A stretch of DNA of 64,000 nucleotides from an uncultured Candidatus Poseidoniales archaeon (GCA_964613395.1 CAZTGO010000006.1:3764-67763); one strand, 5' to 3'; shown: positions 4,143-62,762, counted from the first letter of the stretch. A program made the numbers and translations. Notes: a model not told the origin generated them from the sequence alone.

Positions 4143-4155
4143 ATGGTGAATTCAA

Positions 4156-4386: not shown

Positions 4387-4397
4387 GAGGTGAAAAA

Positions 4398-4589: not shown

Positions 4590-4663
4590 TTCCATCCAAA
4601 TTGTTTCATCCCTAAGCCGTATTGCTCATAAACAGGACATTCGTCGAAGGAACAGGTGAGAAC

Positions 4664-5113
4664 ATGGAAACTACGTATGTAATGGTAAAACCAGATGGGG
4701 TACAAAGAGGGCTAGTCGGTGAAATTCTTCAACGATTTGAACGCAAAGGATTGAAACTTGTTGGACTGAAGTCAATGGTACCAAGTGAAGAAATTGCTAT
4801 GAAGCATTACGAAGTTCACGCAGAGCGACCATTCTTCCCTGGCCTTATCCGATTTGTGACCTCCGGTCCAGTTGTTTGTATGGCATGGCAAGGACGAGAT
4901 GCGATTAGTGTTGCAAGAAACCTCATTGGTCCGACCAATGGAAGAGAAGCAGCACCCGGAACAATCCGAGGGGATTTTGGAATGGATATCGGTTACAATA
5001 TGATTCACGGCTCAGATGCACCTGAAACAGCAGAATTTGAATTATCACTTTGGTTCCCTGAAGGCCTCATGGAATGGCAAAACACCATGGGTACATGGGT
5101 TTATGAAGGGTGA
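4664..5113 (+). CDS. ndk: Nucleoside diphosphate kinase
   Basis: [33 protein letters not shown] (catalytic His). ATG 4664 follows AGGTGA. Confidence 0.97.
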
Positions 5114-16106: not shown

Positions 16107-16637
16107 TTAGTCTTCTTTCTTTTTTCGCATCAAAATGAGTTGGTTTGGAACAAAATTCCATGGAATCTCAATATTCAAATTGAACTTGTCAGATATTTCC
16201 TTGAGCATTTCTTTTGCAAGAACTTGGGCTCTAGAATCGCTCAAATCAAGTGCGATATGTTCATTTTCAAAATCGATGTTACTGGTAGATGCTTCTGGGT
16301 GAGGAACTTGATTTGTGTCTTGGGTAGGCTGCTCACGTACATGTAATAATTCCGGCAAGGAAACATCTTTGATTTTTCTCCACCATCTTGCACGTCCTTC
16401 ATCTCGATGATTCTCAACGAGTTCTAATTGTGCAAGTTTTTTCAGATGGTGATAGAGGTTGTATCGGTCGATGTTGATCGCATTTTGGAGTTGTACGGTG
16501 CTCATTTCCTCCGACCTTGAAAGAAGAACATACAATTCTCGTCGGGTTGGGTGAGCGAGAGCAGTTGTAACAGGGTCCCCTCGTATGCGTGCCAATCTCT
16601 CACCATTCGCCCATACATACTCATTGACTTTGAACAT
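16107..16637 (-). CDS. ArsR-like winged-HTH transcriptional regulator
   Basis: ALAHPTRRELYVLL...STVQLQNAINIDRYNLYHHLKKLAQLELVE...GRARWW. Confidence 0.85.
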   Translation of the reverse strand: MFKVNEYVWANGERLARIRGDPVTTALAHPTRRELYVLLSRSEEMSTVQLQNAINIDRYNLYHHLKKLAQLELVENHRDEGRARWWRKIKDVSLPELLHVREQPTQDTNQVPHPEASTSNIDFENEHIALDLSDSRAQVLAKEMLKEISDKFNLNIEIPWNFVPNQLILMRKKKED

Positions 16638-28400: not shown

Positions 28401-28764
28401 ACCTCAATTCCCCAGTTGAATTCGAAACTTCAACATCGTTAAATGTTCCATTCCACGAAGTATTTGCTGCTAAACCAAATGTTGTCGTATCCATTGAGTA
28501 AAGTTCGGGAATTGGTTCGACATTCATTGTACCGTTCATAAACGTGTGATTCGCAGGTATGGTGATAAGAGTTGAATCGAGCACATCGACTGAAGATGTC
28601 GTCGTGTTTGTGTTGTATGTGGCAGAGGTTTGGTGTGGTGAGGTCTTTTCATTTGAGAATGAAATGAGTGCATTCGAATACACAGAAAGACACATGAGAA
28701 GAACCAAGAAGAGAGCATTCAATCTCAAGGATTTTGAAGGATTTTTGTGGCTGCATGTCCTCAA
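22456..28764 (-). CDS. Giant (2102 aa) membrane-anchored surface protein with repeated jelly-roll (MAM/immune-inhibitor-A-like) domains and C-terminal CARDB/Ig domain
   Basis: Signal peptide and repeated GW[FY]IDN/DD-type domain ends. CARDB-like VGQELSIDIDIVNPG...WTIEAWKEG. C-terminal TM followed by RRNR. Confidence 0.8.
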   Translation of the reverse strand: MRTCSHKNPSKSLRLNALFLVLLMCLSVYSNALISFSNEKTSPHQTSATYNTNTTTSSVDVLDSTLITIPANHTFMNGTMNVEPIPELYSMDTTTFGLAANTSWNGTFNDVEVSNSTGELRLAVQEIRGESTDFESLTLQPEGWFSIGQNHTIWEVVDLANNTLSTDMAHPSQGTDGMYSLSTTSSGNLSSSMYTCIQSPTLSTPNMFRNYSFSFDSWTSLLDSDAAWIEFRNVSTWQVVSPQEGYQNSTTGLVYAPQTANSGESNQWLRHSILLDDVLVATSTDFQLRFCIETSTQTDQRGGWFIDNISLENEGDARGAWIHGNLSGDYAPNAYGIMYLEADLSGLSGQLEFEFWANWDIEGASSDELSTWYSVDNGSNWQVISPIPGLPGWGFAHQGVTYRMESYGWIPVRYALPTNLSSHQNASQILFSFQVNTDAVKNFGGSFSEDWEGMVIDDVAIWAGRNSPSPVRRVISNFSSQPSQTIGDPSGWKNTSTTLINEWQWTNSLGNNGPTSRQFSFENPVVAPAGWSILSNGKTGWEIGLTANTSGYGPGAFSSGSNGAAINLVTRYTNNLYTHLISPEFVVPDNASARLQFNSWMCAEANWDGGTVSISTDDGASWWYIPDSVPDFHDQISTVNPYSPHYMLGIIDGSNVQGGNCIQNRPQQFIPKSFEMNNISGQHIRARFSFFSDQYLEYDGWYIDDIDFEVEVFQQTGQWTSTSISPDQHYGYGLLDGWYDIPTGTDISVTLLDHQGQQIPDYVGRKLPLPVLIDPVEYPSVQVQIHFESEDEYLTPTIHSLHLGPQHFIQSAELSQLSGTFSNDGFVSLQQQELRVNEFSVCPFSHLNLVTYGWNASWTDDEMFNSSWWNNQDKNGERQYNYSSSIARTVLTLRLKFEQNQAFERAVITPTCVLFPTNISIEFDKTSEHLFSWPPDSIPSSLGLSTSFFLDGQTSPVSATDDIPVSAQSNISLSYILPLSALPNTHNQYGFVHVTTNFSSNSILTVSTNQVDVTAGRNSFYIPIQQHCPNTITQIYIESTNAQTQTCEMRIESNAEGTIKINRFFHYHQHSTFALSLSHQILEDAKIASYQGGNYEMIGIPIAIESSNAGVRLNATTVQLPMFIESVESSTIDQWLPNREVEITTYHSRVNPAQTTNDAPDIASIVLSLGSSSNIDSSFVVVEVDQIDSAPRFRQHSGLGLAALQPSIISCQLNACEVKWKFKSSWLLDDVDDVHYFLTSTDSNGMYAGPFHSFTNTQLNQIENDLEIVELSITDTLGRSIGDWTDPMWPFHVQPSSSMEVTGKVRFDGTSNIWVGSNEAEITIRLQAVPPINASGGQPEWPENPIDFARYWTGEVDENGRFSIDIESPSHEDDLPSNTWFKVQAYISRCGPESQTMTTSLDRTQTISEIRFLHDSSPPSFVELDVLDPTGRVSLDGHIWMEGQNIPVRLFIEDDEGLSSNIEVRTWFEYRDDDNNDGIMDVDEYQSLWVSVNKGQTSAEIDLPLISWNEILAPTAQIGKASLVVYAFDLAGNSIQFGGFEGEESDAATFEVHRRSDTIVQIDDFQFDIEGGHLLPGYLHSFTAVLTEGNGLESLDSVRFHLMSGENLQSCYIHFLPRYNNLNFDESCFEEQPRVEIVQRTPSSTFEVKFSFRLAWQRVANLPEKSYLPSFAVHDEGSSLPIGFSTMERYRWMAERAVDLRIDLIEDETGSQGGIYDDTLTVTTGDVVNTTIGLYYNSSLIQAEFLPSTGSIKWILSDGERQRVGQVNLTDIGQYSIPIVMEAIVLVQDDGTLSFSLEGMDEWNTSTIHLNVLMDEDAPRGELPQGIFENLRSNALDNVELIFVVNDDGGIGIHETLMFVELYRAGKPVDGMHRMFVLDGETTGSTRVTFEQHVNLSFSDVEFQRGDSFEIWFQVIDNAGYEMTGLGSENQPYRFGITLVAFEPAFQDILVNPYRAKVGQELSIDIDIVNPGLLAGSTTLILRNDEGRILNSTDLALDSGQTERISWTIEAWKEGRLGLTIELENKTPRIPIPMASIEPYQEEDSSSGMINAGLSILGIIILAFLVIIRRNRNVEKWFDHVNFDETTQFSGEQEYANQSEEE

Positions 28765-43920: not shown

Positions 43921-44982
43921 ATGGGTTTATTCCACTGCATCGTCAATCCAGCGAGTAGGGATTACCAGTGTGGTAAACAATGGCCAAAAATTCGGGCTGC
44001 AATTGAACAACGCGGTCATGAAGTCAAAGAATACATCACACAACATGTTGGGCATGCTTCACATCTTTCCAATGATATTCGAACCAGTTGGGAAGAGAAC
44101 GGTATTGGTGGCGAGGCCGAAGGTAAGCCACCGGTGGTTGTAGCCGTTGGTGGTGATGGTGTGGCCCATGAGGTCGCCAGTGGTATTCGAGGGTCAACGC
44201 TTGTTCTTGCTCAAATTCCGTTCGGATCAGGCAATGATTACTGTATCACCCATAACATTTCTCGAAAAAATCTTGACCAAGTTCTCGATGTCTTAGAAAG
44301 TGGCGTCAATAGGCATTGTGGAGCATGGCGCCTCGAAGGGTATGCATGCAACGAAGAGAAGGGATATCCTGCTCCGAGCCAAAATTCGTGGGATGGGGCA
44401 CCAAAGAATGAAAACAAAATTGTCAGGTGGGTCTTCCTTGAATCAGACGCGGGTATTACATCAGCAATTTCAAGAGCAAAATTGCGTCGGGCAAAATGGC
44501 TCAAGGGACCAAAAAAATACACGTATCTCGGAGTGACGACTATTCCTGTATGGCCTCGAAGGAAAGTGAGAATGCAGATTGATGATGAGGAGCCATGGGA
44601 TGGTGACATCACCATGTTCACTGCTACCACTGGGGAAACGTTTGGAGGCGGGTACAAAGTGAATCCGGGTATGTTTCCCATTCGAGAAAAAGGTATGATC
44701 GTCTTTGCTGCACGACTTTCTCGACTCGCCATGTTGCAGTTGATGGGACCGGTGAAAAAAGGAAAGCATATTGGAAAATGGGGCATATACCAAAAAGATG
44801 CAATGAACATTCAACTTTGGCCGCTTTCAAAAGATGGGTCGAAAAGTGAGATTCCTCTTGAGCCTCCCACATTCATTCAAGCAGACGGTGAGCCACTTCT
44901 TCAGCTGCCGGCTTCACTTGAATGGCATACAAAACAACTCTTTGTTCGAGGTGCCCCAACAATTTCTTGGGCTTCAGAATGA
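43921..44982 (+). CDS. Diacylglycerol/lipid kinase family protein (YegS/BmrU-like)
   Basis: IVNPAS, VAVGGDGVAHEV, IPFGSGND, FGGG, IQADGE. ATG 43921 chosen as start. Confidence 0.88.
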   Translation: MGLFHCIVNPASRDYQCGKQWPKIRAAIEQRGHEVKEYITQHVGHASHLSNDIRTSWEENGIGGEAEGKPPVVVAVGGDGVAHEVASGIRGSTLVLAQIPFGSGNDYCITHNISRKNLDQVLDVLESGVNRHCGAWRLEGYACNEEKGYPAPSQNSWDGAPKNENKIVRWVFLESDAGITSAISRAKLRRAKWLKGPKKYTYLGVTTIPVWPRRKVRMQIDDEEPWDGDITMFTATTGETFGGGYKVNPGMFPIREKGMIVFAARLSRLAMLQLMGPVKKGKHIGKWGIYQKDAMNIQLWPLSKDGSKSEIPLEPPTFIQADGEPLLQLPASLEWHTKQLFVRGAPTISWASE

Positions 44983-46458
44983 AAAGTCTGAGAAGTCATC
45001 GTCTTCATCGTCATCGAAGGTTTGGCGTTGCGGCGGGGCTCGTCGTTGAGGTTCCGCCTCACTCTTTTCTTCCCATGGCTGAGATGTTGCTTTTTTGACC
45101 GCTTTTCGTCGACGAACAGGAGGTTGACGCTTCACCTCTGGCTCGGCTTGCCTTTCTTCAGGTTCTGAAGCCACAGTTGTTCTCGAAGGAGGCGGGCCTC
45201 GTGAACGAGGGGGTGTTGCTGATTCTCGGGCTGGTGGTTCTTTTGCAGCACTTGAACCAACCGAGGAGAGTTGAGAGGTCACAGCAGAGTTGCTTGATTT
45301 TCTGGTAGGGGCTTGTGCACCTGGCCCTGATGTTCGTGATGATTTTCCTGCAGTGGCGAGGACGCTATCCAAATCGAACCCACCTAGTTCGTCTGAATCT
45401 CCCTCGGAAGGAAGGATGGTCGAGGATTTTCTCTCTTCCAATTTTGCCTTTGCCTCTGCTTCTTTCCGTTGGCGTTTCAAACGTTCCTCAGGTGATTCCA
45501 TACCCTCTTTCTTTGCGACTTTAATATCGGCCTTTACTTTGGCCACCTTGGACATGCCTTCCTCTCCAACGAGGACTTTCATCTGGTCTTTTGCATCTTT
45601 GAGAAGCAACGTCTTTGAGAAAATGAAGGTAGCAACAGCCCCTCCAATTCCAAAGATAAAGAACGATGAAATGTAACCTGCTCGGCCACCAATAAAGGCA
45701 ACATCACCGTGTACCCATTCTTCTTCATCGTTACCGTTTTCGGAAATAACGCCGCTTGAAAGCACAATTTCCTCAACCAAGACATATTCAGAAAATTTGT
45801 CACCATCAAATGCAAGGTCACACTTCGAATTCGCTTCAAATCGGTTCGCATTGTTGGGTAGGATATATCCTGAGATTGATACTGGCTGATGCCACTCAGT
45901 GAGGGCAACCATACCTTCAAGGACATTTTGTGATGATGGAATAAGGCCAAGCACATACCACTTGCTTTCCAATTCTGATTTGGTAAGGTCAACGCCACCG
46001 GATTTGGTGTCCGGACTAATTGGGTCTTCCCATGTGTTGAGGTCGATTCGTGGCCCTTCGCCAGCAGGAACATTTTCTGCATTTGAAAAGCTCATTCTTT
46101 GAACTGCAACGGCTAACGCCGTGCTTCGTGATAGAACAGTGGGTAGACCTTCCTCAGCAATATCTTTGTTGAATGGTTCATGTGCATCATAAAGATAACT
46201 GGATGCGAGATAACCAGTGAAGGTAAATGCCGTGCCGTTGTTTTCACTCGTGTTCGAATCTTGATCTACATCGCAACCAATGGAATTTACAGTTCGGGAA
46301 TCGGATGTTGTGAAAGGTGTTAACGTGTATGTCCCATCACCATTATCGTTGACATGAACAGCATTTGATGATTTTCCCCACTCTGGTGCAGCAGGACCAA
46401 TACAGCCTGCTACAACCATCGAGGCGAGGATAACCAACACAAGCACACCTCGGCGCAT
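44974..46458 (-). CDS. Hypothetical lipoprotein-like membrane protein with long charged disordered cytoplasmic tail
   Basis: Start MRRGVLVLVILASMVVAGCIG (lipobox-like). TM at YISSFFIFGIGGAVATFIF. S/P/R/E-rich tail. Confidence 0.75.
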   Translation of the reverse strand: MRRGVLVLVILASMVVAGCIGPAAPEWGKSSNAVHVNDNGDGTYTLTPFTTSDSRTVNSIGCDVDQDSNTSENNGTAFTFTGYLASSYLYDAHEPFNKDIAEEGLPTVLSRSTALAVAVQRMSFSNAENVPAGEGPRIDLNTWEDPISPDTKSGGVDLTKSELESKWYVLGLIPSSQNVLEGMVALTEWHQPVSISGYILPNNANRFEANSKCDLAFDGDKFSEYVLVEEIVLSSGVISENGNDEEEWVHGDVAFIGGRAGYISSFFIFGIGGAVATFIFSKTLLLKDAKDQMKVLVGEEGMSKVAKVKADIKVAKKEGMESPEERLKRQRKEAEAKAKLEERKSSTILPSEGDSDELGGFDLDSVLATAGKSSRTSGPGAQAPTRKSSNSAVTSQLSSVGSSAAKEPPARESATPPRSRGPPPSRTTVASEPEERQAEPEVKRQPPVRRRKAVKKATSQPWEEKSEAEPQRRAPPQRQTFDDDEDDDFSDFSF

Positions 46459-46511
46459 GTTCCATCTAAGATGGATTGAGTTTGAGAACTCTTCCCTTGA
46501 TTTTTTTGTTA

Positions 46512-46597
46512 TGGCGCGGTCGGAGAGATTTGAACTCCCGAGTCCAAGGGACACCGGATTTCAAATCCGGCGCAATACCAGGCTATGCGACGACCGC
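46512..46597 (-). tRNA. tRNA-Ser(TGA), CCA encoded
   Basis: Reverse complement gives acceptor GCGGTCG/CGACCGC, anticodon arm CCGGA-TTTGAAA-TCCGG, a long variable arm, and G-CCA. Confidence 0.96.
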
Positions 46598-46618: not shown

Positions 46619-48151
46619 TCATTTTTTACGACTTTCCCTTGGCTTTTCTAATTGATAACTCCAAAACATGAGTCCGAGGACGAGTACAAGAAGTGTTTGA
46701 GTTAACGAGGCACTAGGTAAGCCAGGTCCTTCTCCAACACCTAGCGTGTTTTCTTTCTCCATCAACTCTCGAACATCCTTGACAAAATCTTCCGGAATCC
46801 AATGCTCACCAGCCCACATGATGCGAGGCACGCGTTCTTGGTCGAGCAAATAGGTTGCACTCGAGTGACCCACAGTGTAATTCTTGGTTGCGTCCTCCAC
46901 ACAGAGTAACATCGTTGAGTCGGGCCAACTGTAACCAGCATCACACATGCAGTGAAGGGATTGGTTTTCTCCCATCAACCACCCATGCCCGCCACATGCT
47001 TGTTCATCGTCTCCGAACGAGTATGGGGAAGGGATGTCACTCAAGTTGGTGGTCGAAGGATGCCAAGCAATTTTTGTTGTTGCGTTGACATCATCCATTC
47101 CAACCTGAGACTCTTCCCAGACCGAGTTTGTTTGGTTCCATGTGGACAATTGCCACCACCATGTTTCATTCTCACTCGGTTTTTTATCGATTGATGAGAG
47201 GTAATTGCCCCATGATGAAAAGACAATATCAGCATCGTATTGATTGTGAGTGAAAGCGGATGCTGATGCTGCAAAGCCATTCCAACTTGAGATGCCGGTC
47301 ATCATTGTTGTTTGGTTTTCGTACATCACAGTCATACTAGCAACGTTCTGTGGGTCGGGAGAATTTAGATTGCTTGTATTTGCATTGGAGGGTGCCCACG
47401 CAAAATGAGAGATATCAAGAACATCAATGGAAGAAATTCCATCTTCTGCGACAAGCCATGAATCAAATTTTTCATTCCAGTACAATACTTCCCATGACCA
47501 GTTCGCATTGGATTCGATGTTGTTGATGCTCGTCATCATTTGACCGTCTTCGTTTTGGCTCGTTTCAATATCGATTCCGAGTTGTCGTGCAAAGATTTGA
47601 GTCCATGTCCGTCCTTCAAAACTCAGCATGAGTGGGATAAATGTGCCATTATCTGACTCGATGAGGAGAGATTGTGAACGCAATTCTTCTTTGAATTCTT
47701 CTTCTTGGTTTTGCTCATACACATTTTCGACAACGATGCCAAAGGTTGACCAAATAGGGAGCAATTGCTCATATGTTCCTGTAAGATGAGGCCAAGAAGC
47801 TTGGTGTATTTGTGAATACGTTTCCAGTTCCTCGGGACCATCATGCAGTGGATCGGTTGTGATTGAGACAAATGTAATATGATTCTTTTCTTCATCGGTA
47901 AGAAGGGTTTCAACAGATTTCATCGATTGTGTAATTGTTGGACACACATCAGGGCATCTTGTAAAAATGAATGAAAGAACGATGATATCGTTTGAATCTC
48001 TGTCAAAATTATATTCTGAGCCGTTCTGTGTTGTCAGTGTAAAATTTTGAATTGGTTGCCTGCTCAACTGATATCCAATGAAAGCCGCTTGTGTGGTAGA
48101 AGTACACAGAAAAAGGCACGCTACGATAACAAGCAAGGTTTTGCGAAGCAT
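46619..48151 (-). CDS. SCO1/SenC copper chaperone with ~280-aa internal insertion
   Basis: FIFTRCPDVCP, SITTDPLHD, WPHLTG and distal YTVGHSSATYLLD. Signal peptide and C-terminal TM. Confidence 0.88.
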   Translation of the reverse strand: MLRKTLLVIVACLFLCTSTTQAAFIGYQLSRQPIQNFTLTTQNGSEYNFDRDSNDIIVLSFIFTRCPDVCPTITQSMKSVETLLTDEEKNHITFVSITTDPLHDGPEELETYSQIHQASWPHLTGTYEQLLPIWSTFGIVVENVYEQNQEEEFKEELRSQSLLIESDNGTFIPLMLSFEGRTWTQIFARQLGIDIETSQNEDGQMMTSINNIESNANWSWEVLYWNEKFDSWLVAEDGISSIDVLDISHFAWAPSNANTSNLNSPDPQNVASMTVMYENQTTMMTGISSWNGFAASASAFTHNQYDADIVFSSWGNYLSSIDKKPSENETWWWQLSTWNQTNSVWEESQVGMDDVNATTKIAWHPSTTNLSDIPSPYSFGDDEQACGGHGWLMGENQSLHCMCDAGYSWPDSTMLLCVEDATKNYTVGHSSATYLLDQERVPRIMWAGEHWIPEDFVKDVRELMEKENTLGVGEGPGLPSASLTQTLLVLVLGLMFWSYQLEKPRESRKK

Positions 48152-48160
48152 GTACGAACC

Positions 48161-48508
48161 TCATCGCTGGCCAGCATAATCCCAGTTTGGCGTGCACCAA
48201 TCTGGAAGGCCTGTGACTGCTCCAGGATTGGATAGTCCGATTCCCCAAAGCATCAACAAGACGAAGATGACTGGAAAAATTGCAGTACGGAAGTAAATCA
48301 CAGGGTCACCTCGAAGGTGCATGAAATAAGCTGCAATTCCGTATCCTTTGACAATACCAACGCCGATGAGAATTGCCCACACAATCATGAGGTCCAACTC
48401 GATGTACACTGCACCAACTTCGAGGATGGTAAATACCATGAGAACAATAAAGTTCCAGAAGTAGATGTCTTTGCCCATAATTAATTTGTGATCTCCCATT
48501 TTTTTCAC
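48161..48508 (-). CDS. Cytochrome c oxidase subunit IV (prokaryotic CtaF/CyoD-like)
   Basis: Three TM helices with LMVFTILE, IVKGYGIAAYFMHL. Position directly after coxIII. Confidence 0.85.
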   Translation of the reverse strand: MKKMGDHKLIMGKDIYFWNFIVLMVFTILEVGAVYIELDLMIVWAILIGVGIVKGYGIAAYFMHLRGDPVIYFRTAIFPVIFVLLMLWGIGLSNPGAVTGLPDWCTPNWDYAGQR

Positions 48509-48509
48509 C

Positions 48510-49919
48510 TCAATACAAATAGAACGCTGGGAAAATGGCTACCCAAGCCAAATCCACAAAGTGCCAATACAAACCAAAGTATTCGATACCTTGACCGTTT
48601 TCTTCATCAAAACCAACGGTATCTGCTTTGAATATCAAGTAAAGCATCACTAGCAATCCAATGAAAACGTGCAATCCGTGTGCACCAGTTGCAATGTAAA
48701 AGATAGAACCACCTTGTGTACCGATATCGAACCCTTCAGCAACAAGATGGCTCCATTCAATGAGTTTCAGCACGATGAACATGGAACCGAGAAGGAATGT
48801 CGCAAGGAGATAATTGCGTACAGCAATCTTCTGTGTTGGCATGATTTTACCCATGAATCCTTTTGGAGCTTCCCAGTTGTGTGCTTTCGCTGTCTTGAGT
48901 GCTAGGACGATGGTGTAAGAAGAAATGATGAGAGCAAATGTGTTAATTGCACCTGGAAGCAATGTCATGAAGTCGCCTTGGCCGCCGATAACAGTACCGT
49001 CTTCGAGGACCATGCTCCCACCGTTTGGTCTGAGGAAATCGGATGCTGTGAGCATATCAACTTGATACGAAACCGCACCGTTTTCACCGACGACTTGACA
49101 AGAGGGATTTTCCTCTTGTACTTGCCAAAATGTACACCACTCTGTTCTCATTCGTAGATAGGACGAGAAGAATGTGGCGAACACCATAACTTCGGACATA
49201 ATGAAAACCCAAAGCCCTGCTTTTCGGATATGTTGCCCTTCAAATGGATGCGATGTTGCAATTTGCTCGCCGTGGCCGATAAACGGAAGGTCTTCTCTCC
49301 ACCAATTTGCAACACCGATGGCAACGATGACCAAACCGAGCAAACTGAGCGTCATATCACCCACATTACCGCCTGCATCGGTCATCAGCATTGCCTTCGC
49401 AGCATCTGCGAACATTGGGAATCCCATTAAGAAGAGGAGTATACCAAATGAGAAGATAATCGGGGATGATGATCCGTGGTGCTCGTGACCATATTCGTCT
49501 TCATGCCCATGGCCATCACCATGGTCGCCGGATGGCTGAATTGAATTCATGAAGCCACCAAGTCCGATAAAGAGTGCATACACTACACACATGAGGAGAA
49601 TGGTAATACCTGCGGTTCTCCATGTCAAGTACGAAAGATGAGCTTCTACATAGTGATGGTGTGCATCTTCTTCCACCTTGTGCAATTGATCTAATTCACT
49701 TTGCGTTGCGGTTCCTGAATCTGATGCCGCTTTGTAGTCTTCTTTTGCAACCTCGTAAGCATGGTGTGCATCTTCATATTCATGGTGTTTTAGATTCGCA
49801 ACACCAACGCCCATGACCCCGTAAGCGAGGACGCCAACGATGAGGAAAATTGCACCAAATAGGACTGCTCTCATCCAAATGGTATTTTCGATATCTGCAC
49901 CATGTCCGTGGGCACTCAT
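48510..49919 (-). CDS. Cytochrome c oxidase subunit III with His-rich N-terminal extension
   Basis: GLWVFIMSEVMVFATFFSSY, NTFALIISS, FYIATGAHGLHVFIG, GLYWHFVDLAWVAIFPAFY. Confidence 0.92.
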   Translation of the reverse strand: MSAHGHGADIENTIWMRAVLFGAIFLIVGVLAYGVMGVGVANLKHHEYEDAHHAYEVAKEDYKAASDSGTATQSELDQLHKVEEDAHHHYVEAHLSYLTWRTAGITILLMCVVYALFIGLGGFMNSIQPSGDHGDGHGHEDEYGHEHHGSSSPIIFSFGILLFLMGFPMFADAAKAMLMTDAGGNVGDMTLSLLGLVIVAIGVANWWREDLPFIGHGEQIATSHPFEGQHIRKAGLWVFIMSEVMVFATFFSSYLRMRTEWCTFWQVQEENPSCQVVGENGAVSYQVDMLTASDFLRPNGGSMVLEDGTVIGGQGDFMTLLPGAINTFALIISSYTIVLALKTAKAHNWEAPKGFMGKIMPTQKIAVRNYLLATFLLGSMFIVLKLIEWSHLVAEGFDIGTQGGSIFYIATGAHGLHVFIGLLVMLYLIFKADTVGFDEENGQGIEYFGLYWHFVDLAWVAIFPAFYLY

Positions 49920-52255
49920 GAGCTCGCCTCCTTTGGTTCGCCTTTCCAGAGTTTTTCTTTGATCGAAGGCGTATCGTTATGATGACCATAGTGCTCATTC
50001 ATGTCGTTTTGTGTAGGGATGTCATGGAATGATGGCGTTGGTGGAGGTGATGTCGTCGACCATTCGAGGGACCAACCGCCCCATGGGTCTTTGCCGACAG
50101 GTTCGCCTCGCTTTCCAGAGTAGATGATGTTCCACACGAGAAGGAGTTGGCTGAGGCCAAAGATGAAGGCGAAGATTGACACTGCCATATTATACTCAGC
50201 GAATCCAGATTCAACGGTGTAGGTATGTGTTCTTCTTGGCATACCCATGATGCCAAGTGCGTGCATTGGCCAGAATGCGGCATTGTAAGCCGAGAAGCCA
50301 ATGAGGAAATGCCAGAGACCAAGTGTTTCGTTGAGTTTTCGGCCGGTCACCTTTGGGTACCAGTAGTATAGACCAGAGAACAGTGCAAACACAGTTCCAC
50401 CGATAAACACGTAGTGGAAGTGAGCCACGACGAAATACGAATCATGGAAATGGATATCAAGACCTGCTACTGGGAAAAACATTCCAGAAATTCCACCGAG
50501 TGTAAACGTGACGAGGAAGCCAAGAGACCACAATGTGTGGGTCTTCATGACAAGGGAGCCACCCCAAAGCGTTGCGAGCCAGTTGAAGATTTTGGCTCCA
50601 GTTGGAATAGCCACAAGCATGGTTGTAATCATGAACGCTGCACGCCAAAATGGGTCCATACCCGATGTGAGCATGTGGTGCCCCCACACGATGAAGCCAA
50701 CAACACCGATACCGGCCATAGCGAAGACCATCGATTTGTACCCAAAGATCGACCTTCGAGCAGATGTTGCAAGAACTTCAGATACGATACCGAAGGCAGG
50801 CACAATCACAACGTATACCTCGGGATGGCCAAAGAACCAGAACAGGTGCTGGAACAACAACGGGTCCCCTCCCGCAACGAAGAATGTCGTTCCTATCGTG
50901 TGGTCAAACAGCAAGAAAAAGACACCGATGACAAGTGCTGGTAGAGACATGTACAACATGAATACGCTGATGAAAACCGACCATGTAAACAGAGGCATTC
51001 GCATCCATGTGACGCCAGGGGCTCGCATCGTGAACACAGTTGTAATGAAATTCACACCGCTTAGCGTAGAAGATGCACCGAGCATGGCCATGCCAGAGAT
51101 GAACGAAATCGTACCAAGGTTTGCTCCATATCCCGATAAACTTTCACCCAAGTTTGCTTCTGAAAGCGAAGCATATGGCGGGTACATGACCCATGTGATG
51201 TCAGCACCTTGACCAGACCAAATGCCCGAGAAAATGAGTGGTGCTGAAAACACGAGAAGCCAAAGTCCCATGGCGTTGATTCGAGGGAAGGCGAGGTCTT
51301 TTGCACCAATTTGCAACGGTAACACGTAATTCATGAAACCAGCAATCATTGGCATGGCCCCTAGGAAAATCATTGTCGTTCCGTGGAGTGTAAAGAACGA
51401 GTTGTATTCGTCGTAAGTGAGGAAATCGTTTTCTGGGAGAGCGAGTTGTATTCTAAACAATAGAGCAAGCAATCCTCCGACCAGGAAGAAAAAGAATCCG
51501 AAGAGGAAATACATCACGCCGACTTCTTTGTGATCAGTTGTGGTAAGCCAAGGTTTGAGGAATGACCAGAATTTGTCCATTGTAAAGGTGTCAGGTGAAC
51601 GTCGGTAAAACACCCAAAGGATGCCGAGGAAAATTAGTCCAACAGCGAGACCGATGGCTGTGATGAAGATGACGAGGGCAGATGCACTCGGACCGGTTGA
51701 TTCAGCGTTAACACCTGGAATGGAAATCACGACTTTATTCCAGTAGTCTCCCGATGACCCTCCATTTCCAGTGTTGCCGTTCACAGCGTTACCGTAGACT
51801 GTAAGTTCAACTGTTTTGGTATCATCTGCTGGTGCGGTGAGTTCAAAGTCCCACGACCTGAATTTGTTCCCATCAACCGTGTGTGTCAATCCGCCTTCAT
51901 ATTCATAGGAGAGCGTTTCATCAACACCGGTGACGGTTGTGCCACTCGAAGCAATGATTCTGAATCCACCGTAAGGAACAGTTCTTGAGCCATCGGTAAC
52001 GATGCCATCACCATCAAGTGTCATCACATCGTTTTGAATGGTCACAGTGAACGCATAGGTTTCACTCGCGTTGAACGATTCAGGCAATCCCGAAACTGTG
52101 ACTTTGGTGTCATCTGAAGGGGTTAGTCCGTGACAAAAACAACCTTGGCTGTTTGCTACTTCACCGATACCATTAGGTGCAGCTGAAAATTGAGGCATTG
52201 CAAAAATTGAGGCGAGGAAAGCGAGCGTAACCAGAACAAGGATACTCTTTCTCAT
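49916..52255 (-). CDS. Cytochrome c oxidase subunit I (A1 type) fused to N-terminal Reeler-like domain
   Basis: TTTDHK, TLHGTTMIF, DLAFPRIN (D channel), WFFGHPEVY, WGHHM, PTGAK (K channel), VAHFHYV. Confidence 0.96.
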   Translation of the reverse strand: MRKSILVLVTLAFLASIFAMPQFSAAPNGIGEVANSQGCFCHGLTPSDDTKVTVSGLPESFNASETYAFTVTIQNDVMTLDGDGIVTDGSRTVPYGGFRIIASSGTTVTGVDETLSYEYEGGLTHTVDGNKFRSWDFELTAPADDTKTVELTVYGNAVNGNTGNGGSSGDYWNKVVISIPGVNAESTGPSASALVIFITAIGLAVGLIFLGILWVFYRRSPDTFTMDKFWSFLKPWLTTTDHKEVGVMYFLFGFFFFLVGGLLALLFRIQLALPENDFLTYDEYNSFFTLHGTTMIFLGAMPMIAGFMNYVLPLQIGAKDLAFPRINAMGLWLLVFSAPLIFSGIWSGQGADITWVMYPPYASLSEANLGESLSGYGANLGTISFISGMAMLGASSTLSGVNFITTVFTMRAPGVTWMRMPLFTWSVFISVFMLYMSLPALVIGVFFLLFDHTIGTTFFVAGGDPLLFQHLFWFFGHPEVYVVIVPAFGIVSEVLATSARRSIFGYKSMVFAMAGIGVVGFIVWGHHMLTSGMDPFWRAAFMITTMLVAIPTGAKIFNWLATLWGGSLVMKTHTLWSLGFLVTFTLGGISGMFFPVAGLDIHFHDSYFVVAHFHYVFIGGTVFALFSGLYYWYPKVTGRKLNETLGLWHFLIGFSAYNAAFWPMHALGIMGMPRRTHTYTVESGFAEYNMAVSIFAFIFGLSQLLLVWNIIYSGKRGEPVGKDPWGGWSLEWSTTSPPPTPSFHDIPTQNDMNEHYGHHNDTPSIKEKLWKGEPKEASS

Positions 52256-53241
52256 TAGTAACCACCTCCTGATGCCTCTGCTTTGACTCCAGTATCAACA
52301 TCGCAGAAGTCATTTGAACCGACGCCAGTCCATTCCCGTGCCACGACTTTGACAACTCCACCCATCATAGAATGCTGATTACCGCAGTATTCAGCACAAC
52401 GAATTGGAAATTCTCCTGCTCGGTCAGGCGTCGCCATCATGACCGTGCCGCTTTCTAAACCTGGAACGAGATCTTCCTTGACACCCCACTCAGGTAGCCA
52501 GAAGGAGTGTTGAACGCCTACATAGTTTGGGTTGGAGTCGTCTGAAGGCTTTGAGTGCATAGTGAACACTGTATTTTCGTCACACGGCACAATCATAGGT
52601 TCATTAGATGCAGACGAGAACATGTGGCCTTCTGGGATGTGCATCCATGTGTGGAGGACATCGCCTGCTTCGTTTGTAACTTCGACGATAGCGAAGGTTC
52701 CCTCATCGAAAGGTTGGTTGATCGTGAGGAGGCCAGTCATCTGGTCGAGTTCGTATTGATTTTCATCCGAGCCGACGATGACTGTAGCGTTCACGCCTGC
52801 GGATTGAGAGGCATCGACAGTGAGCGAGCCTTGCCAATTGACATCAACACCGGTTGACCTGGAATCGTCTTCCCAGGTAAGTTCATCGGTGTAGTGGTAT
52901 TCCCAGAACCATTGTTTGCCGACGATTTCCATATCATTGGTCTCTGCTGGGTCTTCGGGAATCTTCCAAACCTCTGTGTTAGAAGCCAAAGCAAGAACGA
53001 TGAGCCAAGCGACGATGATCGTAGGAAGGACATAGAACATAACTTCGATACGTGTATTGTGTCGATCGACGGGGAATGAACCGACCTCGATGTGGTCGAC
53101 TTGAGTGGTGTCAGGCTCGACACCGTCACGATATCTCAAGATGGCTAAAAAGAGCCAACCAAACGTAAAGATACCCACGATAATAGACCAAAACATGAAC
53201 TTCTCGTATAGAACTGCGAAGACTGTGTCTCGTGCAACCAT
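52255..53241 (-). CDS. Cytochrome c oxidase subunit II with insertion
   Basis: Two TMs, GKQWFWEY, VQHSFWLP, CAEYCGNQHSMM (complete CuA ligands). No CxxCH cytochrome c domain. ATG 53241 chosen as start. Confidence 0.94.
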   Translation of the reverse strand: MVARDTVFAVLYEKFMFWSIIVGIFTFGWLFLAILRYRDGVEPDTTQVDHIEVGSFPVDRHNTRIEVMFYVLPTIIVAWLIVLALASNTEVWKIPEDPAETNDMEIVGKQWFWEYHYTDELTWEDDSRSTGVDVNWQGSLTVDASQSAGVNATVIVGSDENQYELDQMTGLLTINQPFDEGTFAIVEVTNEAGDVLHTWMHIPEGHMFSSASNEPMIVPCDENTVFTMHSKPSDDSNPNYVGVQHSFWLPEWGVKEDLVPGLESGTVMMATPDRAGEFPIRCAEYCGNQHSMMGGVVKVVAREWTGVGSNDFCDVDTGVKAEASGGGY

Positions 53242-61562: not shown

Positions 61563-62762
61563 TTATTCTTCATCATCTGATAGGATCGTGGATGTTTCAT
61601 CCAATACCGACAAATGGTGTTCGTCATCTCGCTCTTCAAGAGCTCTCATTGATTGAGCACGGTGATAGACTTCCCGCAACGTTTGGTCTGATATTTCGAG
61701 ATATACACGGGTGGTTGCGATGGTTGCATGGCCCATTAATCGCTGAATTGAAACTAAATCTGCACCTCGTTCGAGGAGGCCTGTTGCAAAATTGTGCCGG
61801 AGAACGTGTGGTGTTAGTCTGCCTTGAGGAAGGCCAATTTCTGCTGAGAGTGCATCCATAATCCTTTGAATCGCCCTTGAATTTAGTCGCCGTCCGAATC
61901 GGTTCACAACTAAAGAATCTTGACTTTTTGATGCAAACGTCTCCCGGATTGGCAACCATTTTTGAATTGCTGACAAGGTTCGTTGTGTAAAAAGAACCAA
62001 GCGATCTTTGTCTCCCTTTCCGCCAATGACGCGCGCTGATGAATCTTCGATATCGATGTCTGTAACATTGAGTGCACATACCTCACTTACCCTAAGGCCT
62101 GTGTCGAGCATGAGGGTGACAATGAGGTCGGCATTTGGATTTTCACTGTCCCTCGCCGCTTCGATAACATCGCTTAATTCGCGTTTTGTGAGTGTTCTCG
62201 GTAACCGCTTTCCAACTCGAGAACGCAAAAGATGGTCTGGCCAACGATGACCAAGCCACTTGATGAGATGTCGCGCAGCTGCTAGGCGTGCATTGAATGT
62301 TGAGGGTTTTAAACTGTGAAGCGAATGAACCCAAACATCGATTCGTCCATTCATGGGTTCAAGACGATCAACGAGTTCACCAAGGCTCATGGATTCATAT
62401 TCTTGTTGAGTCAAGATTTTTTCGCCTGGTAAAACTGATTCGACGAGTGAACGGAGGCCATAAAAATAAGATTTTTGAGTGTTTTCTGATTTGTTTTCGG
62501 TCCGAAGTTGCTGCTCGTAACATTGTATCCAAGGGAGATGTTGAATGTGCAACAACCTCGCAGGAAGTTGGCGTGGCTCATTATCGAGTCGGGATTGTTT
62601 TGCATCTTGACTATCGCGATGTTGGCTCGGCCTTCGAGCCATTGGTTGAGGCATTCGCGCGTCTTTCTCGTTCATTGGCGTCACCGCCTGCTCACCGACG
62701 TGAGCGTGCATCCCATGTCCATTGGACATGTGGCAGTACACTTCACTCCTTAATGAAACCAT
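61563..62762 (-). CDS. xerA: XerA-like tyrosine recombinase (start uncertain)
   Basis: TGLRVSE, GKGDKDR, TPHVLRHNFATGLLERGADL..IQRLMGHATIATTRVY. All R-K-H-R-H-Y residues are present. Confidence 0.9.
   Translation of the reverse strand: MVSLRSEVYCHMSNGHGMHAHVGEQAVTPMNEKDARMPQPMARRPSQHRDSQDAKQSRLDNEPRQLPARLLHIQHLPWIQCYEQQLRTENKSENTQKSYFYGLRSLVESVLPGEKILTQQEYESMSLGELVDRLEPMNGRIDVWVHSLHSLKPSTFNARLAAARHLIKWLGHRWPDHLLRSRVGKRLPRTLTKRELSDVIEAARDSENPNADLIVTLMLDTGLRVSEVCALNVTDIDIEDSSARVIGGKGDKDRLVLFTQRTLSAIQKWLPIRETFASKSQDSLVVNRFGRRLNSRAIQRIMDALSAEIGLPQGRLTPHVLRHNFATGLLERGADLVSIQRLMGHATIATTRVYLEISDQTLREVYHRAQSMRALEERDDEHHLSVLDETSTILSDDEE

What the first reader, a model, noticed from the sequence alone, without database searches (positions are those of the whole stretch)
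46619..53241. Heme-copper oxidase operon in which four of five proteins carry grafted metal-ligand modules
Seen: coxII-coxI-coxIII-coxIV-sco are contiguous (overlaps or gaps under 10 nt) and all catalytic ligands are intact. CoxI has a Reeler-like CxCH ectodomain, CoxII an HTWMH..GHM insert, CoxIII a 17-His module, and SCO two DUF4430-like repeats plus an EGF-like module. No cytochrome c domain or gene is present. Inference: a self-contained oxidase with built-in metal capture/delivery and possibly a non-cytochrome-c electron entry route, suited to trace-metal-poor seawater. This is the best candidate for an undescribed system in the window.
Basis: partly seen in the sequence, partly recalled or inferred. 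Interest (0 to 1): 0.85.

Follow-up and report, generated by a model that had tools for sequence, protein, structure and literature searches.

The report
Marine archaeal oxidase with extra ectodomains
This is the oxygen-reducing respiratory enzyme of an abundant ocean archaeon (Marine Group II). Its subunits carry unusual extra outer domains, and one of them, a small domain with a fixed Cys-x-Cys-His motif fused to the catalytic subunit, may be an undescribed cofactor-binding part of archaeal respiration.

Summary
Five co-directional, tightly packed genes (coxII-coxI-coxIII-coxIV-sco) encode an A1-type, CuA-containing heme-copper oxidase and its SCO assembly factor from a Poseidoniaceae (MGIIa) archaeon. 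All catalytic ligands are intact and there is no CxxCH.

The four "grafts" exist but differ greatly in age and in what they imply:
- **CoxI N-domain.** It is a Reeler-like beta-sandwich (NCBIfam choice-of-anchor V). G-C-x-C-H and a distal His are invariant in 68/68 full-length Poseidoniales CoxI. A second marine euryarchaeal lineage has the same fusion. The wider family is mostly stand-alone, but it recurs beside or fused to redox enzymes.
- **CoxIII His cluster.** The order-wide part lies at the canonical, cytoplasmic subunit III N-terminus, so it is probably not an external metal trap.
- **CoxII insert.** It is family-specific; only HxWxHxP is conserved.
- **SCO.** The two DUF4430 repeats and the Cys module are inserted inside the SCO fold. 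The repeats have no conserved ligand residues.

Non-cytochrome-c electron entry via halocyanin-type cupredoxins is already the accepted picture. Verdict: a new variant of a known system, with one intriguing domain. The "metal capture" reading is only partly supported.

The parts
52255..53241 (-). coxII (subunit II, CuA). The ORF extends to 53343, but the start is most likely the ATG at 53241.
   Evidence: PF00116 and TIGR02866. CuA ligands are kept in 68/68 homologues. Homologues start at the equivalent Met. ATG verified.
52594..52869 (-). CoxII insert of about 90 aa, placed directly after the QWFWEYHY electron-entry loop. It is present in MGIIa and intermediate clades and absent in MGIIb.
   Evidence: The alignment to R. 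sphaeroides CoxII leaves about 60 extra residues between YWxYEY and the CuA His. Alignment of 68 homologues.
52633..52653 (-). H231-T-W233-M-H235-I-P237 motif within the CoxII insert.
   Evidence: H, W, H and P are each 30/30 in Poseidoniaceae. They are not conserved in the intermediate clades.
49916..52255 (-). coxI (subunit I, A1-type), 779 aa.
   Evidence: PF00115 E 6e-142, TIGR02891. Best PDB matches are actinobacterial aa3 subunit I. Ligands are invariant.
51671..52192 (-). CoxI N-terminal ectodomain (aa 22-195): a Reeler-like beta-sandwich, NCBIfam choice-of-anchor V.
   Evidence: NF041895 at 68.3 bits against a cutoff of 42. AF2 model pLDDT 84. Foldseek top hits are the F-spondin reeler domain. 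The profile against PDB finds only spondin-1, E 0.002.
52130..52141 (-). C39-F-C41-H42 motif; the distal invariant His125 lies at 51881-51883.
   Evidence: GCxCH is present in 68/68 full-length Poseidoniales CoxI. C, C, H and H are 96-98% conserved in 150 family representatives.
51608..51685 (-). Extra transmembrane helix that links the ectodomain to the canonical cytoplasmic N-terminus of CoxI.
   Evidence: Hydropathy peak at aa 194-212. The helix is conserved in alignment A1.
48510..49919 (-). coxIII (subunit III), 469 aa. The canonical 7-TM part starts at about aa 140.
   Evidence: PF00510. The HGSSSPI and WWRE motifs match the canonical TM1-TM2 region, by my comparison with the bovine sequence from memory. 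PDB hits cover TM3-7.
49530..49919 (-). MGIIa-specific CoxIII extension: two extra TM helices flanking a helical hairpin (aa 40-100) that carries His pairs.
   Evidence: It is absent in MGIIb and in L042/L044. H94 is 30/30, H87/H88 are 25/30 and 24/30, H45 is 27/30, and the other His are variable.
49476..49523 (-). His/Asp/Glu-rich stretch (H133-H148) immediately before canonical TM1 of subunit III.
   Evidence: H147 and H148 are kept in all 67 sequences with residues at these positions. Every MGII CoxIII examined has 4-11 His in the 30 aa upstream.
48960..49151 (-). Extracytoplasmic loop insert in CoxIII with a Cys pair (WCTFW ... PSCQ).
   Evidence: Alignment and sequence.
48161..48508 (-). 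coxIV (small prokaryotic subunit IV).
   Evidence: PF03626 E 6e-11.
46619..48151 (-). sco (SCO1/SenC CuA assembly factor), 510 aa, with its fold split by an insertion.
   Evidence: PF02630 covers aa 35-153 only. The C-terminal segment, aa 418-465, aligns to the end of B. anthracis SCO. Public annotation is 'SCO family protein'.
47942..47956 (-). SCO CPDVC copper/thiol motif (aa 66-70).
47366..47677 (-). DUF4430-like repeat 1 (aa 159-262).
   Evidence: Repeat profile E 8e-29. Pfam DUF4430 hits 3 of 24 homologous repeats.
47033..47344 (-). DUF4430-like repeat 2 (aa 270-373).
   Evidence: Repeat profile E 1e-28. AF2 pLDDT 86. The Foldseek top 18 hits are all transcobalamin/intrinsic-factor beta-domain or the bacterial protein 3u7z.
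46901..46996 (-). Four-Cys module C-GGHGW-x-MG-x5-HCMCD-x-GY-x-W ... C (aa 386-417).
   Evidence: It is conserved in most MGII SCOs that carry an insert. Only a loose EGF-like pattern is met.
46742..46900 (-). C-terminal segment of the SCO fold with the Cu-ligand His429 (VGHSSATYLLD).
46622..46741 (-). C-terminal hydrophobic membrane anchor followed by basic residues.
   Evidence: Hydropathy. Some homologues have LPGF/LPGM before the helix, but the PGF-CTERM model does not match.

Best explanation
**Core enzyme.** The operon encodes a canonical proton-pumping A1-type heme-copper oxidase (subunits II, I, III, IV) and its SCO copper-insertion factor, from a Poseidoniaceae (Marine Group II) archaeon. 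The organism has no cytochrome c, so electrons reach CuA from membrane-anchored halocyanin-type blue copper proteins.

**The extras arose at three evolutionary depths.**

1. Oldest, and the only one with a ligand-like signature conserved across the order: the Reeler-like choice-of-anchor V domain on the outer face of CoxI. I propose that its invariant C-x-C-H plus distal His hold a redox-active cofactor, either copper or a covalently attached heme. The domain would then act as a fixed relay or docking station that hands electrons from the donor (cupredoxin or Rieske protein) to CuA.
2. The His-rich stretch of CoxIII is an enlarged version of the canonical cytoplasmic N-terminus of subunit III, which helps collect protons for the D-pathway. 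The MGIIa-only extra helices and hairpin are probably contact surfaces.
3. The CoxII insert sits next to the electron-entry loop and reshapes the donor docking site.
4. The DUF4430 x2 plus Cys-knot insert in SCO is a glycosylated scaffold in the loop that carries the copper-ligand His. It is not itself a ligand-bearing module.

**Shown:** gene identities, ligands, folds, insertion points, conservation depths and gene neighbourhoods.
**Inferred:** cofactor binding, the relay role, membrane topology, the proton-antenna role and the scaffold role.
For: Core enzyme:
- Family and ligand identification.
- The literature assigns the A1 subfamily and reports no cytochrome c in Thermoplasmatota, with blue copper proteins as carriers (PMC9287336).
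- MGII halocyanin is highly transcribed (PMC9723583).
- A FAS1-halocyanin gene with a sub-cutoff PGF-CTERM match lies about 1 kb upstream of coxII in 2 of 80 loci.

CoxI N-domain:
- GCxCH is present in 68/68 full-length Poseidoniales CoxI.
- A second marine euryarchaeal lineage has the same fusion, and a stand-alone copy of the domain is the next gene after coxI.
- The family has 3108 representatives at E<=1e-3, median length 216 aa. C, C, H and H are 96-98% conserved.
- The first Cys varies in spacing (CxCH, CxxCH, Cx4CH, Cx6CH, Cx9CH) while 'CH' stays fixed.
- One member is fused to a halocyanin/plastocyanin domain (P0160). Another lies next to a gene with faint cupredoxin hits.
- Two or three tandem copies sit directly upstream of a molybdopterin oxidoreductase in four syntenic archaeal loci.
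- Reeler fold.

CoxIII:
- The conserved His lie just before HGSxSPI ... WWRE.
- Subunit III has a loop near the D-pathway entry Asp that controls proton uptake, and subunit III is the variable contact surface in supercomplexes (PMC8361435).

CoxII: the insertion point.

SCO:
- The split fold and the DUF4430 fold.
- Only Trp is invariant in the repeats.
- Repeat number varies from 0 to 3.
- There are 12 N-glycosylation sequons.
Against: - No cofactor has been demonstrated for any choice-of-anchor V protein.
- CxCH is not a known heme-c motif, and I could not check whether Poseidoniales have a cytochrome c maturation system. None was seen in about 1 Mb of held sequence, but that sequence is not whole genomes.
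- Two Cys with variable spacing are also what a simple disulfide loop would show.
- Several stand-alone family members sit in unrelated gene contexts.
- The four Mo-enzyme loci are syntenic, so they count as one evolutionary observation.
- The tools returned no coordinates, so the distance of the motif from CuA is unknown.
- The outside/inside assignment of the CoxIII segments rests on the canonical subunit III topology. The hairpin has more Lys/Arg than the proposed cytoplasmic loop.
Confidence: 0.4

Rival explanations
1. Structural reading. The extra modules are cell-envelope adaptations with no cofactor. They would be glycosylated spacers and contact surfaces that stabilise the oxidase, hold it in a supercomplex or under the surface layer, or dock the cupredoxin. 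The Cys pairs would form disulfides, and the conserved His would be structural or bind a structural Zn/Ca ion.
For: - The Reeler, DUF4430 and EGF-like folds are typical extracellular scaffold domains.
- The variable Cys spacing in the N-domain family fits a disulfide loop.
- CoxII C254/C347 and the CoxIII loop Cys pair look like disulfides.
- SCO has 12 N-glycosylation sequons.
- Repeat number (0-3) and the presence of the CoxII and CoxIII inserts vary between clades without loss of the enzyme.
- Subunit III is known to vary with its interaction partners (PMC8361435).
Against: - Conservation of C, C, H and a distal H at 96-98% across about 150 distant representatives is stronger than usual for a purely structural loop.
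- The repeated association with three different classes of redox enzyme is not expected for a generic spacer.
Confidence: 0.25
2. Copper-chaperone reading of the N-domain. The Cys-x-Cys-His site binds Cu(I), and the domain acts as a built-in copper relay for CuB and/or CuA. This would be analogous to Cox11/CtaG, which carries a CFCF motif on an Ig-like domain anchored in the membrane next to subunit I.
For: - The window sequence is literally CFCH, on a membrane-anchored beta-sandwich fused to the subunit that must receive CuB.
- Family members are fused or adjacent to copper proteins: HCO and cupredoxins.
- SCO is in the same operon.
- A P1B-type Cu-ATPase lies in the window.
- The Cox11 properties (CFCF motif, Ig-like fold) are from my own knowledge and were not tested here.
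Against: - Cox11 is not among the top 50 structural matches, so any similarity is analogy only.
- The motif lies at the N-terminal edge of the domain, unlike in Cox11.
- Tandem copies upstream of a molybdopterin oxidoreductase are not explained.
- A precise Cu(I) chelate would not be expected to tolerate Cys spacings of 1 to 9 residues.
Confidence: 0.15
3. All four modules are metal-ligand grafts that together scavenge and deliver trace copper (or iron) to the oxidase in metal-poor seawater.
For: - There are His-rich segments in CoxIII and HxWxH in CoxII.
- The Cys module next to the SCO ligand His contains GHGW..HCMC.
- SCO variants without repeats carry His/Asp/Glu-rich linkers in the same loop (for example HHEEGEHEDEG). 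This shows some selection for metal-binding residues near that site.
- The bacterial protein 3u7z, among the DUF4430-type fold matches, was deposited as a 'putative metal binding protein'.
Against: - The DUF4430 repeats have no conserved His, Cys or Met.
- The order-wide CoxIII His lie at the canonical cytoplasmic N-terminus.
- The 'GHM' part of the CoxII motif is not conserved, and the whole insert is missing in MGIIb, which lives in the same ocean.
- Neither CoxII nor SCO contains a PCuAC-type motif.
- A second marine lineage has only the CoxI fusion.
Confidence: 0.15

Closest known systems
A1-type aa3 cytochrome c oxidases (e.g. Paracoccus/Rhodobacter aa3; actinobacterial CtaCDEF in the bcc-aa3 supercomplex)
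   Same: Subunits I-IV. All six His ligands, the His-Tyr site GHPEVY, the D- and K-channel residues, the CuA motif and a 7-TM subunit III. The best PDB sequence matches are mycobacterial and corynebacterial subunit I.
   Different: There is no cytochrome c donor. CoxI has an extra signal/TM segment, a 170-aa ectodomain and an additional TM helix. CoxII has a 90-aa insert after the electron-entry loop. CoxIII has two extra helices and an enlarged His cluster.
Archaeal oxidases fed by blue copper proteins (Natronomonas ba3 with halocyanin; Sulfolobus SoxM with sulfocyanin; Thermoplasmatales complex IV loci next to cupredoxins)
   Same: A cytochrome-c-free archaeon with a CuA subunit and anchored cupredoxins as the probable donors (PMC9287336, PMC9723583).
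   Different: In Poseidoniales the cupredoxin gene is usually not next to the oxidase: only 2 of 80 loci have one nearby. The coxA lineage is reported as bacterial-like and separately acquired. None of the described systems has a Reeler-like domain on subunit I.
Reeler domain (F-spondin, reelin N-terminus; Reeler-DOMON-cytochrome b561 ferric reductases in animals)
   Same: Beta-sandwich fold. It is the only sequence-profile match in the PDB (E 0.002) and the top Foldseek match. From my own knowledge, it also occurs as an ectodomain on membrane redox proteins in eukaryotes.
   Different: The prokaryotic choice-of-anchor V family has an N-terminal G-C-x-C-H segment and a T-H-T His that the spondin domain lacks. 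The aligned region starts after the motif.
Cytochrome f / c1-type anchored c-cytochromes
   Same: The layout is the same: signal peptide, a C-Xn-C-H motif about 15 residues into the mature chain, a beta-sandwich body and a C-terminal membrane anchor. The first Cys is variable and 'CH' is invariant. The comparison with cytochrome f is from my own knowledge.
   Different: The dominant spacing is one residue (CxCH), which is not a known heme-attachment motif. No homology was detected. No maturation system has been shown in these archaea.
SCO1/SenC copper chaperones
   Same: The CxxxC motif and the His ligand in a thioredoxin-like fold. The Pfam score is above threshold. The gene is encoded with the oxidase.
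   Different: About 270 aa (two DUF4430 domains and a 4-Cys module) interrupt the fold, just before the strand that carries the ligand His. There is also a second, C-terminal membrane anchor.
DUF4430 / transcobalamin and intrinsic-factor beta-domain
   Same: The fold. The top 18 Foldseek hits are all this fold or the bacterial protein 3u7z, with probability 0.87-1.00 and query-normalised TM about 0.4-0.5. Pfam hits some repeats.
   Different: It occurs in tandem inside a copper chaperone. The window's own repeat 2 gave no Pfam hit, and no corrinoid link is known here.

Membership tests
Heme-copper oxidase, A1 subfamily | Six conserved His in subunit I that ligate the low-spin heme, the high-spin heme and CuB. 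| tested here: met
   H291, H477, H526, H527, H612 and H614 are invariant in A1. They align to mycobacterial CtaD.
Heme-copper oxidase, A1 subfamily | Helix VI GHPEVY with the D-channel Glu and the cross-linked Tyr, the D-channel entry Asp, and the K-channel Lys. | tested here: met
   H477-P-E479-V-Y481, D320 and K555 are all invariant. The literature also assigns Poseidoniales coxA to A1.
Heme-copper oxidase, A1 subfamily | CuA site in subunit II (H ... CxExCGxxHxxM). | tested here: met
   H279, C316, E318, C320, H324 and M327 are kept in 68/68 sequences.
Heme-copper oxidase, A1 subfamily | Heme type (a/a3) and proton pumping. | not testable with these tools
   This needs spectroscopy or biochemistry.
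SCO1/SenC | The family HMM scores above its curated cut-off. | tested here: met
   PF02630 scores 88.4 bits against a cutoff of 22.8, but covers aa 35-153 only.
SCO1/SenC | The CxxxC motif plus a distal His copper ligand. | tested here: met
   CPDVC at 66-70. VGH429S aligns with the ligand-His strand of 4hde.
SCO1/SenC | A contiguous single thioredoxin-like domain. | tested here: not met
   About 270 aa are inserted between aa 153 and 418.
choice-of-anchor V (NF041895) / Reeler-like domain | The family HMM scores above its curated cut-off. | tested here: met
   68.3 bits against a cutoff of 42, E 7e-19, over aa 22-174.
choice-of-anchor V (NF041895) / Reeler-like domain | The family's conserved G-C-x-C-H, T-H-T, W and NAVNG positions. 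| tested here: met
   All are present in the window and in 68/68 Poseidoniales CoxI.
choice-of-anchor V (NF041895) / Reeler-like domain | A stand-alone secreted protein ending in a C-terminal sorting or anchor signal. | tested here: not met
   Here the anchor helix continues into CoxI. Typical members are about 216 aa.
choice-of-anchor V (NF041895) / Reeler-like domain | Reeler beta-sandwich fold. | tested here: met
   Foldseek top hits are 2zot, 3coo and 2zou, with TM 0.4-0.6. The profile hit to spondin-1 has E 0.002. The similarity is modest.
DUF4430 (PF14478) | A Pfam HMM match. | tested here: inconclusive
   Full SCO gave no DUF4430 hit at E<=0.1 and repeat 2 none at E<=5. Three of 24 homologous repeats match, best E 5.5e-5.
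DUF4430 (PF14478) | Transcobalamin beta-domain-type fold. | tested here: met
   The AF2 model has pLDDT 86. The top 18 Foldseek hits are all transcobalamin/intrinsic factor beta-domain or the bacterial protein 3u7z.
EGF-like domain | Six Cys forming three disulfides; the EGF_1 signature C-x-C-x2-[GP]-[FYW]-x(4,8)-C. | tested here: not met
   There are only 4 Cys. The strict pattern fails and matches only when the last gap is widened to 10. There is no Pfam EGF hit.
c-type cytochrome | A CxxCH heme-attachment motif. | tested here: not met
   None of the five proteins has one, nor does any credible window gene. The N-domain has CxCH, and CxxCH appears only in rare family members.
Cox11/CtaG CuB chaperone | Homology to the Cox11 Ig-like domain with the CFCF motif. 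| tested here: not met
   Cox11 structures are not among the top 50 Foldseek matches. The resemblance is limited to a CxC motif on a beta-sandwich.
PCuAC copper chaperone | The H(M)x10Mx21HxM motif. | tested here: not met
   The pattern is absent from CoxII and SCO.
PGF-CTERM archaeosortase signal (on SCO) | A TIGR04126 match at the C-terminus. | tested here: inconclusive
   There is no hit for the window SCO or for four homologues. Some homologues show LPGF/LPGM before the helix. The same model does hit the neighbouring halocyanin and a stand-alone N-domain paralogue, below its cutoff.

The most novel reading that the evidence does not exclude
The choice-of-anchor V / Reeler-like domain may be a previously unrecognised extracytoplasmic redox-cofactor domain. 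The cofactor would be a heme attached through a C-Xn-C-H motif whose commonest spacing is a single residue, or a Cys2His2 copper centre. In cytochrome-c-free marine Euryarchaeota it would take the place of cytochrome c/c1: fused to subunit I, it would be the fixed electron entry to CuA. Stand-alone copies would serve other exported redox enzymes, such as molybdopterin oxidoreductases and cupredoxin proteins.
Probability: 0.2. Interest if true: 0.85.

Novelty: new variant of a known kind. Interest (0 to 1): 0.55.

Why it matters
Marine Group II archaea are among the most abundant heterotrophs of the surface ocean and remain uncultured, so their respiration is known only from gene lists. It is an open point how electrons pass from their cytochrome b/Rieske complex, which lacks a cytochrome c1 (PMC6336850), to the terminal oxidase.

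A conserved domain with a ligand-like motif, bolted onto the catalytic subunit and repeated next to other exported redox enzymes, is a concrete and expressible candidate for the missing link. If it binds a cofactor, it defines a new class of electron-transfer or copper-handling domain, with thousands of unannotated members.

The split SCO is a rare natural example of large domains inserted into the copper-binding loop of a metallochaperone. That makes it useful for understanding how CuA is assembled outside a cell that has no periplasm.

Tried and rejected
- **Repeat profile search.** Searching the SCO repeat profile against the large protein collection returned one fragment only, because of the word-index limit, so the wider distribution of the repeat is unknown. 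In about 1 Mb of held MGII sequence the repeat occurs only in SCO.
- **PGF-CTERM.** The model did not match the SCO C-termini, so I dropped that claim to 'anchor helix'.
- **Literature.** Searches for CXCH + heme, reeler domain + archaea, choice-of-anchor, MGII + cytochrome c maturation, and DUF4430 found nothing relevant to this architecture.
- **Cytochrome c maturation.** I looked for WWD-motif proteins and found none, but the held sequence is not whole genomes, so this is uninformative.
- **Cupredoxin in the window.** None was found.
- **Other motifs.** The PCuAC motif and the strict EGF pattern are absent.
- **Rieske-type [2Fe-2S] site.** I considered this because CxCHG resembles Rieske box II. 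I rejected it as unlikely: the family has ordinary Sec-type rather than consistent twin-arginine signal peptides, and only two Cys (by inspection).
- **Di-iron site in the CoxIII hairpin.** I considered ExxH pairs, but the first helix is not conserved.
- **Missing coordinates.** No model coordinates are returned, so I could not measure whether C39/C41/H42/H125 cluster or how far they lie from CuA.

Full report
**What is there**

On the minus strand between 46619 and 53343 lie five ORFs. Their junctions are -1, -4, +1 and +9 nt. Pfam and NCBIfam identify them as follows:

| Gene | Family | Length |
|---|---|---|
| coxII | COX2 | 362-aa ORF |
| coxI | COX1 | 779 aa |
| coxIII | COX3 | 469 aa |
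| coxIV | COX4_pro | 115 aa |
| sco | SCO1/SenC | 510 aa |

coxII most likely starts at Met35, the ATG at 53241. That is where the homologues begin.

CoxI homologues at 52-98% identity and full length come from Candidatus Poseidoniales, covering both Poseidoniaceae (MGIIa) and Thalassarchaeaceae (MGIIb). The closest are Poseidoniaceae/Poseidonia MAGs, so the window is from an MGIIa archaeon.

**Catalytic machinery**

- In CoxI the heme and CuB histidines (H291, H477, H526, H527, H612, H614), the GHPEVY Glu/Tyr, D320 and K555 are invariant in a 12-sequence alignment spanning the order. They align to mycobacterial aa3 subunit I.
- The CuA ligands of CoxII are kept in 68/68 homologues.
- SCO has CPDVC and the ligand His.
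- There is no CxxCH in the five proteins or in any credible gene of the window.

This agrees with published work. Poseidoniales coxA is A1-type and looks bacterial-derived. Thermoplasmatota lack cytochrome c genes and are thought to use blue copper proteins (PMC9287336). [quoted passage not shown] The 'non-cytochrome-c entry route' is therefore right but already known.

**Comparative survey**

One scan of GTDB species genomes returned 80 loci, all Poseidoniales, and I extracted the operon genes from each. The modules have very different depths:

| Protein | MGIIa | MGIIb |
|---|---|---|
| CoxI | 750-808 aa everywhere, always with the N-domain | same |
| CoxII | 320-350 aa | about 236-250 aa |
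| CoxIII | 430-470 aa | 350-390 aa |
| SCO in the operon | 507-584 aa | often absent, or 245-440 aa |

**CoxI N-domain**

- Residues 22-174 match NCBIfam NF041895, 'choice-of-anchor V' (68 bits against a cutoff of 42).
- An AlphaFold model from 12 sequences (pLDDT 84) is a beta-sandwich. Its best PDB matches are the F-spondin reeler domain, with TM 0.4-0.6.
- A sequence profile finds only spondin-1 in the PDB (E 0.002). The aligned part starts after the CxCH segment.
- G38-C39-x-C41-H42 and H125 are invariant, and all 68 full-length Poseidoniales CoxI have GCxCH.
- For topology: a signal-like helix, then the domain, then one extra TM helix precede the canonical cytoplasmic N-terminus of CoxI. 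This places the domain outside, on the CuA side (inference).

*The wider family.* An exhaustive profile search found 3108 representatives at E<=1e-3. The best 150 have a median length of 216 aa, made up of a signal peptide, the domain and a C-terminal anchor. C, C, H and the distal H are conserved at 96-98%.

In 12 of the 150, no CxCH is present. Three of these are N-terminally truncated. In the other nine the first Cys sits at another distance (CxxCH, Cx4CH, Cx6CH, Cx9CH), while 'CH' is constant.

*Gene and domain contexts:*
- One member carries a halocyanin/plastocyanin domain at its C-terminus (P0160).
- One lies next to a gene with faint cupredoxin hits.
- In four syntenic archaeal loci, two or three tandem copies sit immediately upstream of a molybdopterin oxidoreductase of about 810 aa.
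- In a second, widespread marine 'Euryarchaeota' lineage the operon is coxIII (262 aa) - coxII (248 aa) - coxI (727 aa, same N-domain) - stand-alone choice-of-anchor V gene.
- MGII genomes also hold stand-alone paralogues in unrelated contexts.
- No further copy lies in the window.

This domain is thus the one old, ligand-bearing graft. Its family keeps company with exported redox enzymes.

**CoxIII**

The count of 17 His in the first 215 aa is correct. The alignment shows that the canonical seven-helix subunit III begins at about aa 140. HEHHGSSSPI corresponds to the HxxHxVxPSPWP start of bovine and bacterial subunit III, and ANWWRED to its WWRD motif. That comparison is from my memory of those sequences.

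- H147 and H148 are kept in all 67 sequences with residues at these positions. Every MGII sequence examined has 4-11 His in the 30 residues before them.
- By the known topology this stretch is cytoplasmic. Subunit III contributes a loop near the D-pathway entry Asp that controls proton uptake (PMC8361435).
- I therefore read the order-wide His cluster as an enlarged proton-collecting surface, not an external metal trap.
- The remaining His lie in an MGIIa-only extension: two extra helices and a helical hairpin. Only H94 is invariant there; H45, H87 and H88 are mostly kept.
- The same review notes that subunit III varies with its supercomplex partners.

**CoxII**

About 90 residues are inserted directly after the QWFWEYHY loop that holds the electron-entry Trp. 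Within Poseidoniaceae, H231, W233, H235 and P237 are 30/30. Intermediate clades have different residues, and MGIIb lacks the insert and has a Cys-rich loop instead. C254 and C347 are 30/30 and probably tie down the C-terminal tail.

**SCO**

The Pfam match ends at aa 153. The strand with the ligand His (VGH429SSATYLLD) aligns to the C-terminal end of a solved SCO. The roughly 270 residues between them are therefore an insertion inside the fold, in the loop that carries the ligand His.

The insertion consists of two repeats and a 4-Cys module.
- The repeats cover aa 159-262 and 270-373 (E about 1e-28 each to the repeat profile).
- Pfam DUF4430 hits 3 of 24 homologous repeats, best E 5.5e-5.
- An AlphaFold model (pLDDT 86) has as its top 18 PDB matches only transcobalamin/intrinsic-factor beta-domains and 3u7z, a small bacterial protein of the same fold type.
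- Only three Trp are invariant in the repeat.
- Among MGII SCOs the repeat number is 0, 1, 2 or 3. The zero-repeat forms carry His/Asp/Glu-rich linkers at the same place.
- The Cys module (C-GHGW-MG-HCMCD-GY-W-C) is well conserved but fails strict EGF criteria.
- The protein has 12 N-glycosylation sequons and a C-terminal anchor helix. The PGF-CTERM model does not match.
- All these proteins are in public databases simply as 'SCO family protein'.

**Mechanism**

The core is an ordinary A1 oxidase with its CuA assembly factor, fed by anchored cupredoxins. A FAS1-halocyanin gene (PGF-CTERM model hit below cutoff) lies near coxII in 2 of 80 loci. No cupredoxin gene lies in the window.

For the N-domain I favour a cofactor-holding relay or docking module. 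My reasons are its deep conservation, the ligand-like C/C/H/H set, the constant 'CH' with a movable first Cys, its position on the CuA side, and its recurrence with three kinds of exported redox enzyme.

The rivals are:
- a cofactor-free structural or docking domain with a disulfide;
- a Cox11-like copper relay;

None can be excluded without biochemistry. I give the favoured composite explanation 0.4.

**Novelty**

The enzyme class, the missing cytochrome c and the cupredoxin route are known. Searches of the open literature found no description of the following:
- the Reeler-like CxCH domain on subunit I and its family-level link to redox enzymes;
- the split SCO;
- the CoxII and CoxIII elaborations.

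I rate the finding a new variant of a known kind, with a modest chance that the N-domain family is a new kind of cofactor domain.

Noticed in passing
window 16652-19402 (-) and 16107-16637 (-): A P1B-type copper ATPase with an HMA domain (MDCPDC), CPC, DKTG and HP motifs. An ArsR-type regulator gene lies next to it. It is a plausible exporter feeding copper to SCO and the oxidase, about 27 kb from the operon.
   Followed up: partly
window 46512-46597 (-) and 44974-46554 (-): tRNA-Ser(UGA) lies 21 nt downstream of sco on the same strand. The 526-aa ORF listed downstream overlaps it, so that gene must start later (MRRGVLVLV...AGC, lipoprotein-like). It encodes an unannotated membrane protein with a long Lys/Glu/Pro-rich tail.
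   Followed up: partly
L082 4499-9346; L084 6001-10099; L085; L086: In a group of related archaeal contigs, two or three tandem choice-of-anchor V genes sit directly upstream of a molybdopterin oxidoreductase of about 810 aa (Fdh/Nap/Nas-like). MobA/MobB genes lie nearby.
   Followed up: partly
L087/L088 5468-10006: A second marine euryarchaeal lineage has the order coxIII-coxII-coxI(N-domain)-stand-alone choice-of-anchor V gene. It has no sco, no CoxII insert and only one His at the CoxIII N-terminus.
   Followed up: yes
L017 about 3969-4913 and L020 (opposite strand, upstream of coxII): A 312-314 aa protein made of a likely FAS1 (fasciclin-like) domain (by eye), a halocyanin-type cupredoxin domain and a C-terminal PGF-CTERM-like signal. 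It lies near the oxidase operon in only 2 of 80 Poseidoniales loci.
   Followed up: partly
L046-L080 (MGIIb) CoxII and CoxIII: MGIIb CoxII has a Cys-rich loop before QWFW in place of the MGIIa insert. MGIIb CoxIII has a His-rich insert of about 40-60 aa in a loop late in the protein (for example GYLINNDHYQAHHY). Both are unexplored lineage-specific elaborations.
   Followed up: no
L030, L055, L059, L065 SCO: SCO variants without DUF4430 repeats carry short His/Asp/Glu-rich linkers (for example HHEEGEHEDEG) at exactly the insertion point next to the ligand His.
   Followed up: partly
window 22456-28764 (-): A giant 2102-aa ORF whose only detected domain is an InhA-like MAM domain. It is probably a large secreted or surface protein.
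   Followed up: no
window 61563-62762 (-): A tyrosine recombinase (phage integrase family) near the end of the window, among unannotated ORFs. It may mark an integrated element.
   Followed up: no
window 46619-48151 (SCO ectodomain): There are twelve N-x-S/T sequons in SCO, against 3, 1 and 0 in CoxI, CoxII and CoxIII. This suggests that the SCO insert is heavily N-glycosylated.
   Followed up: no
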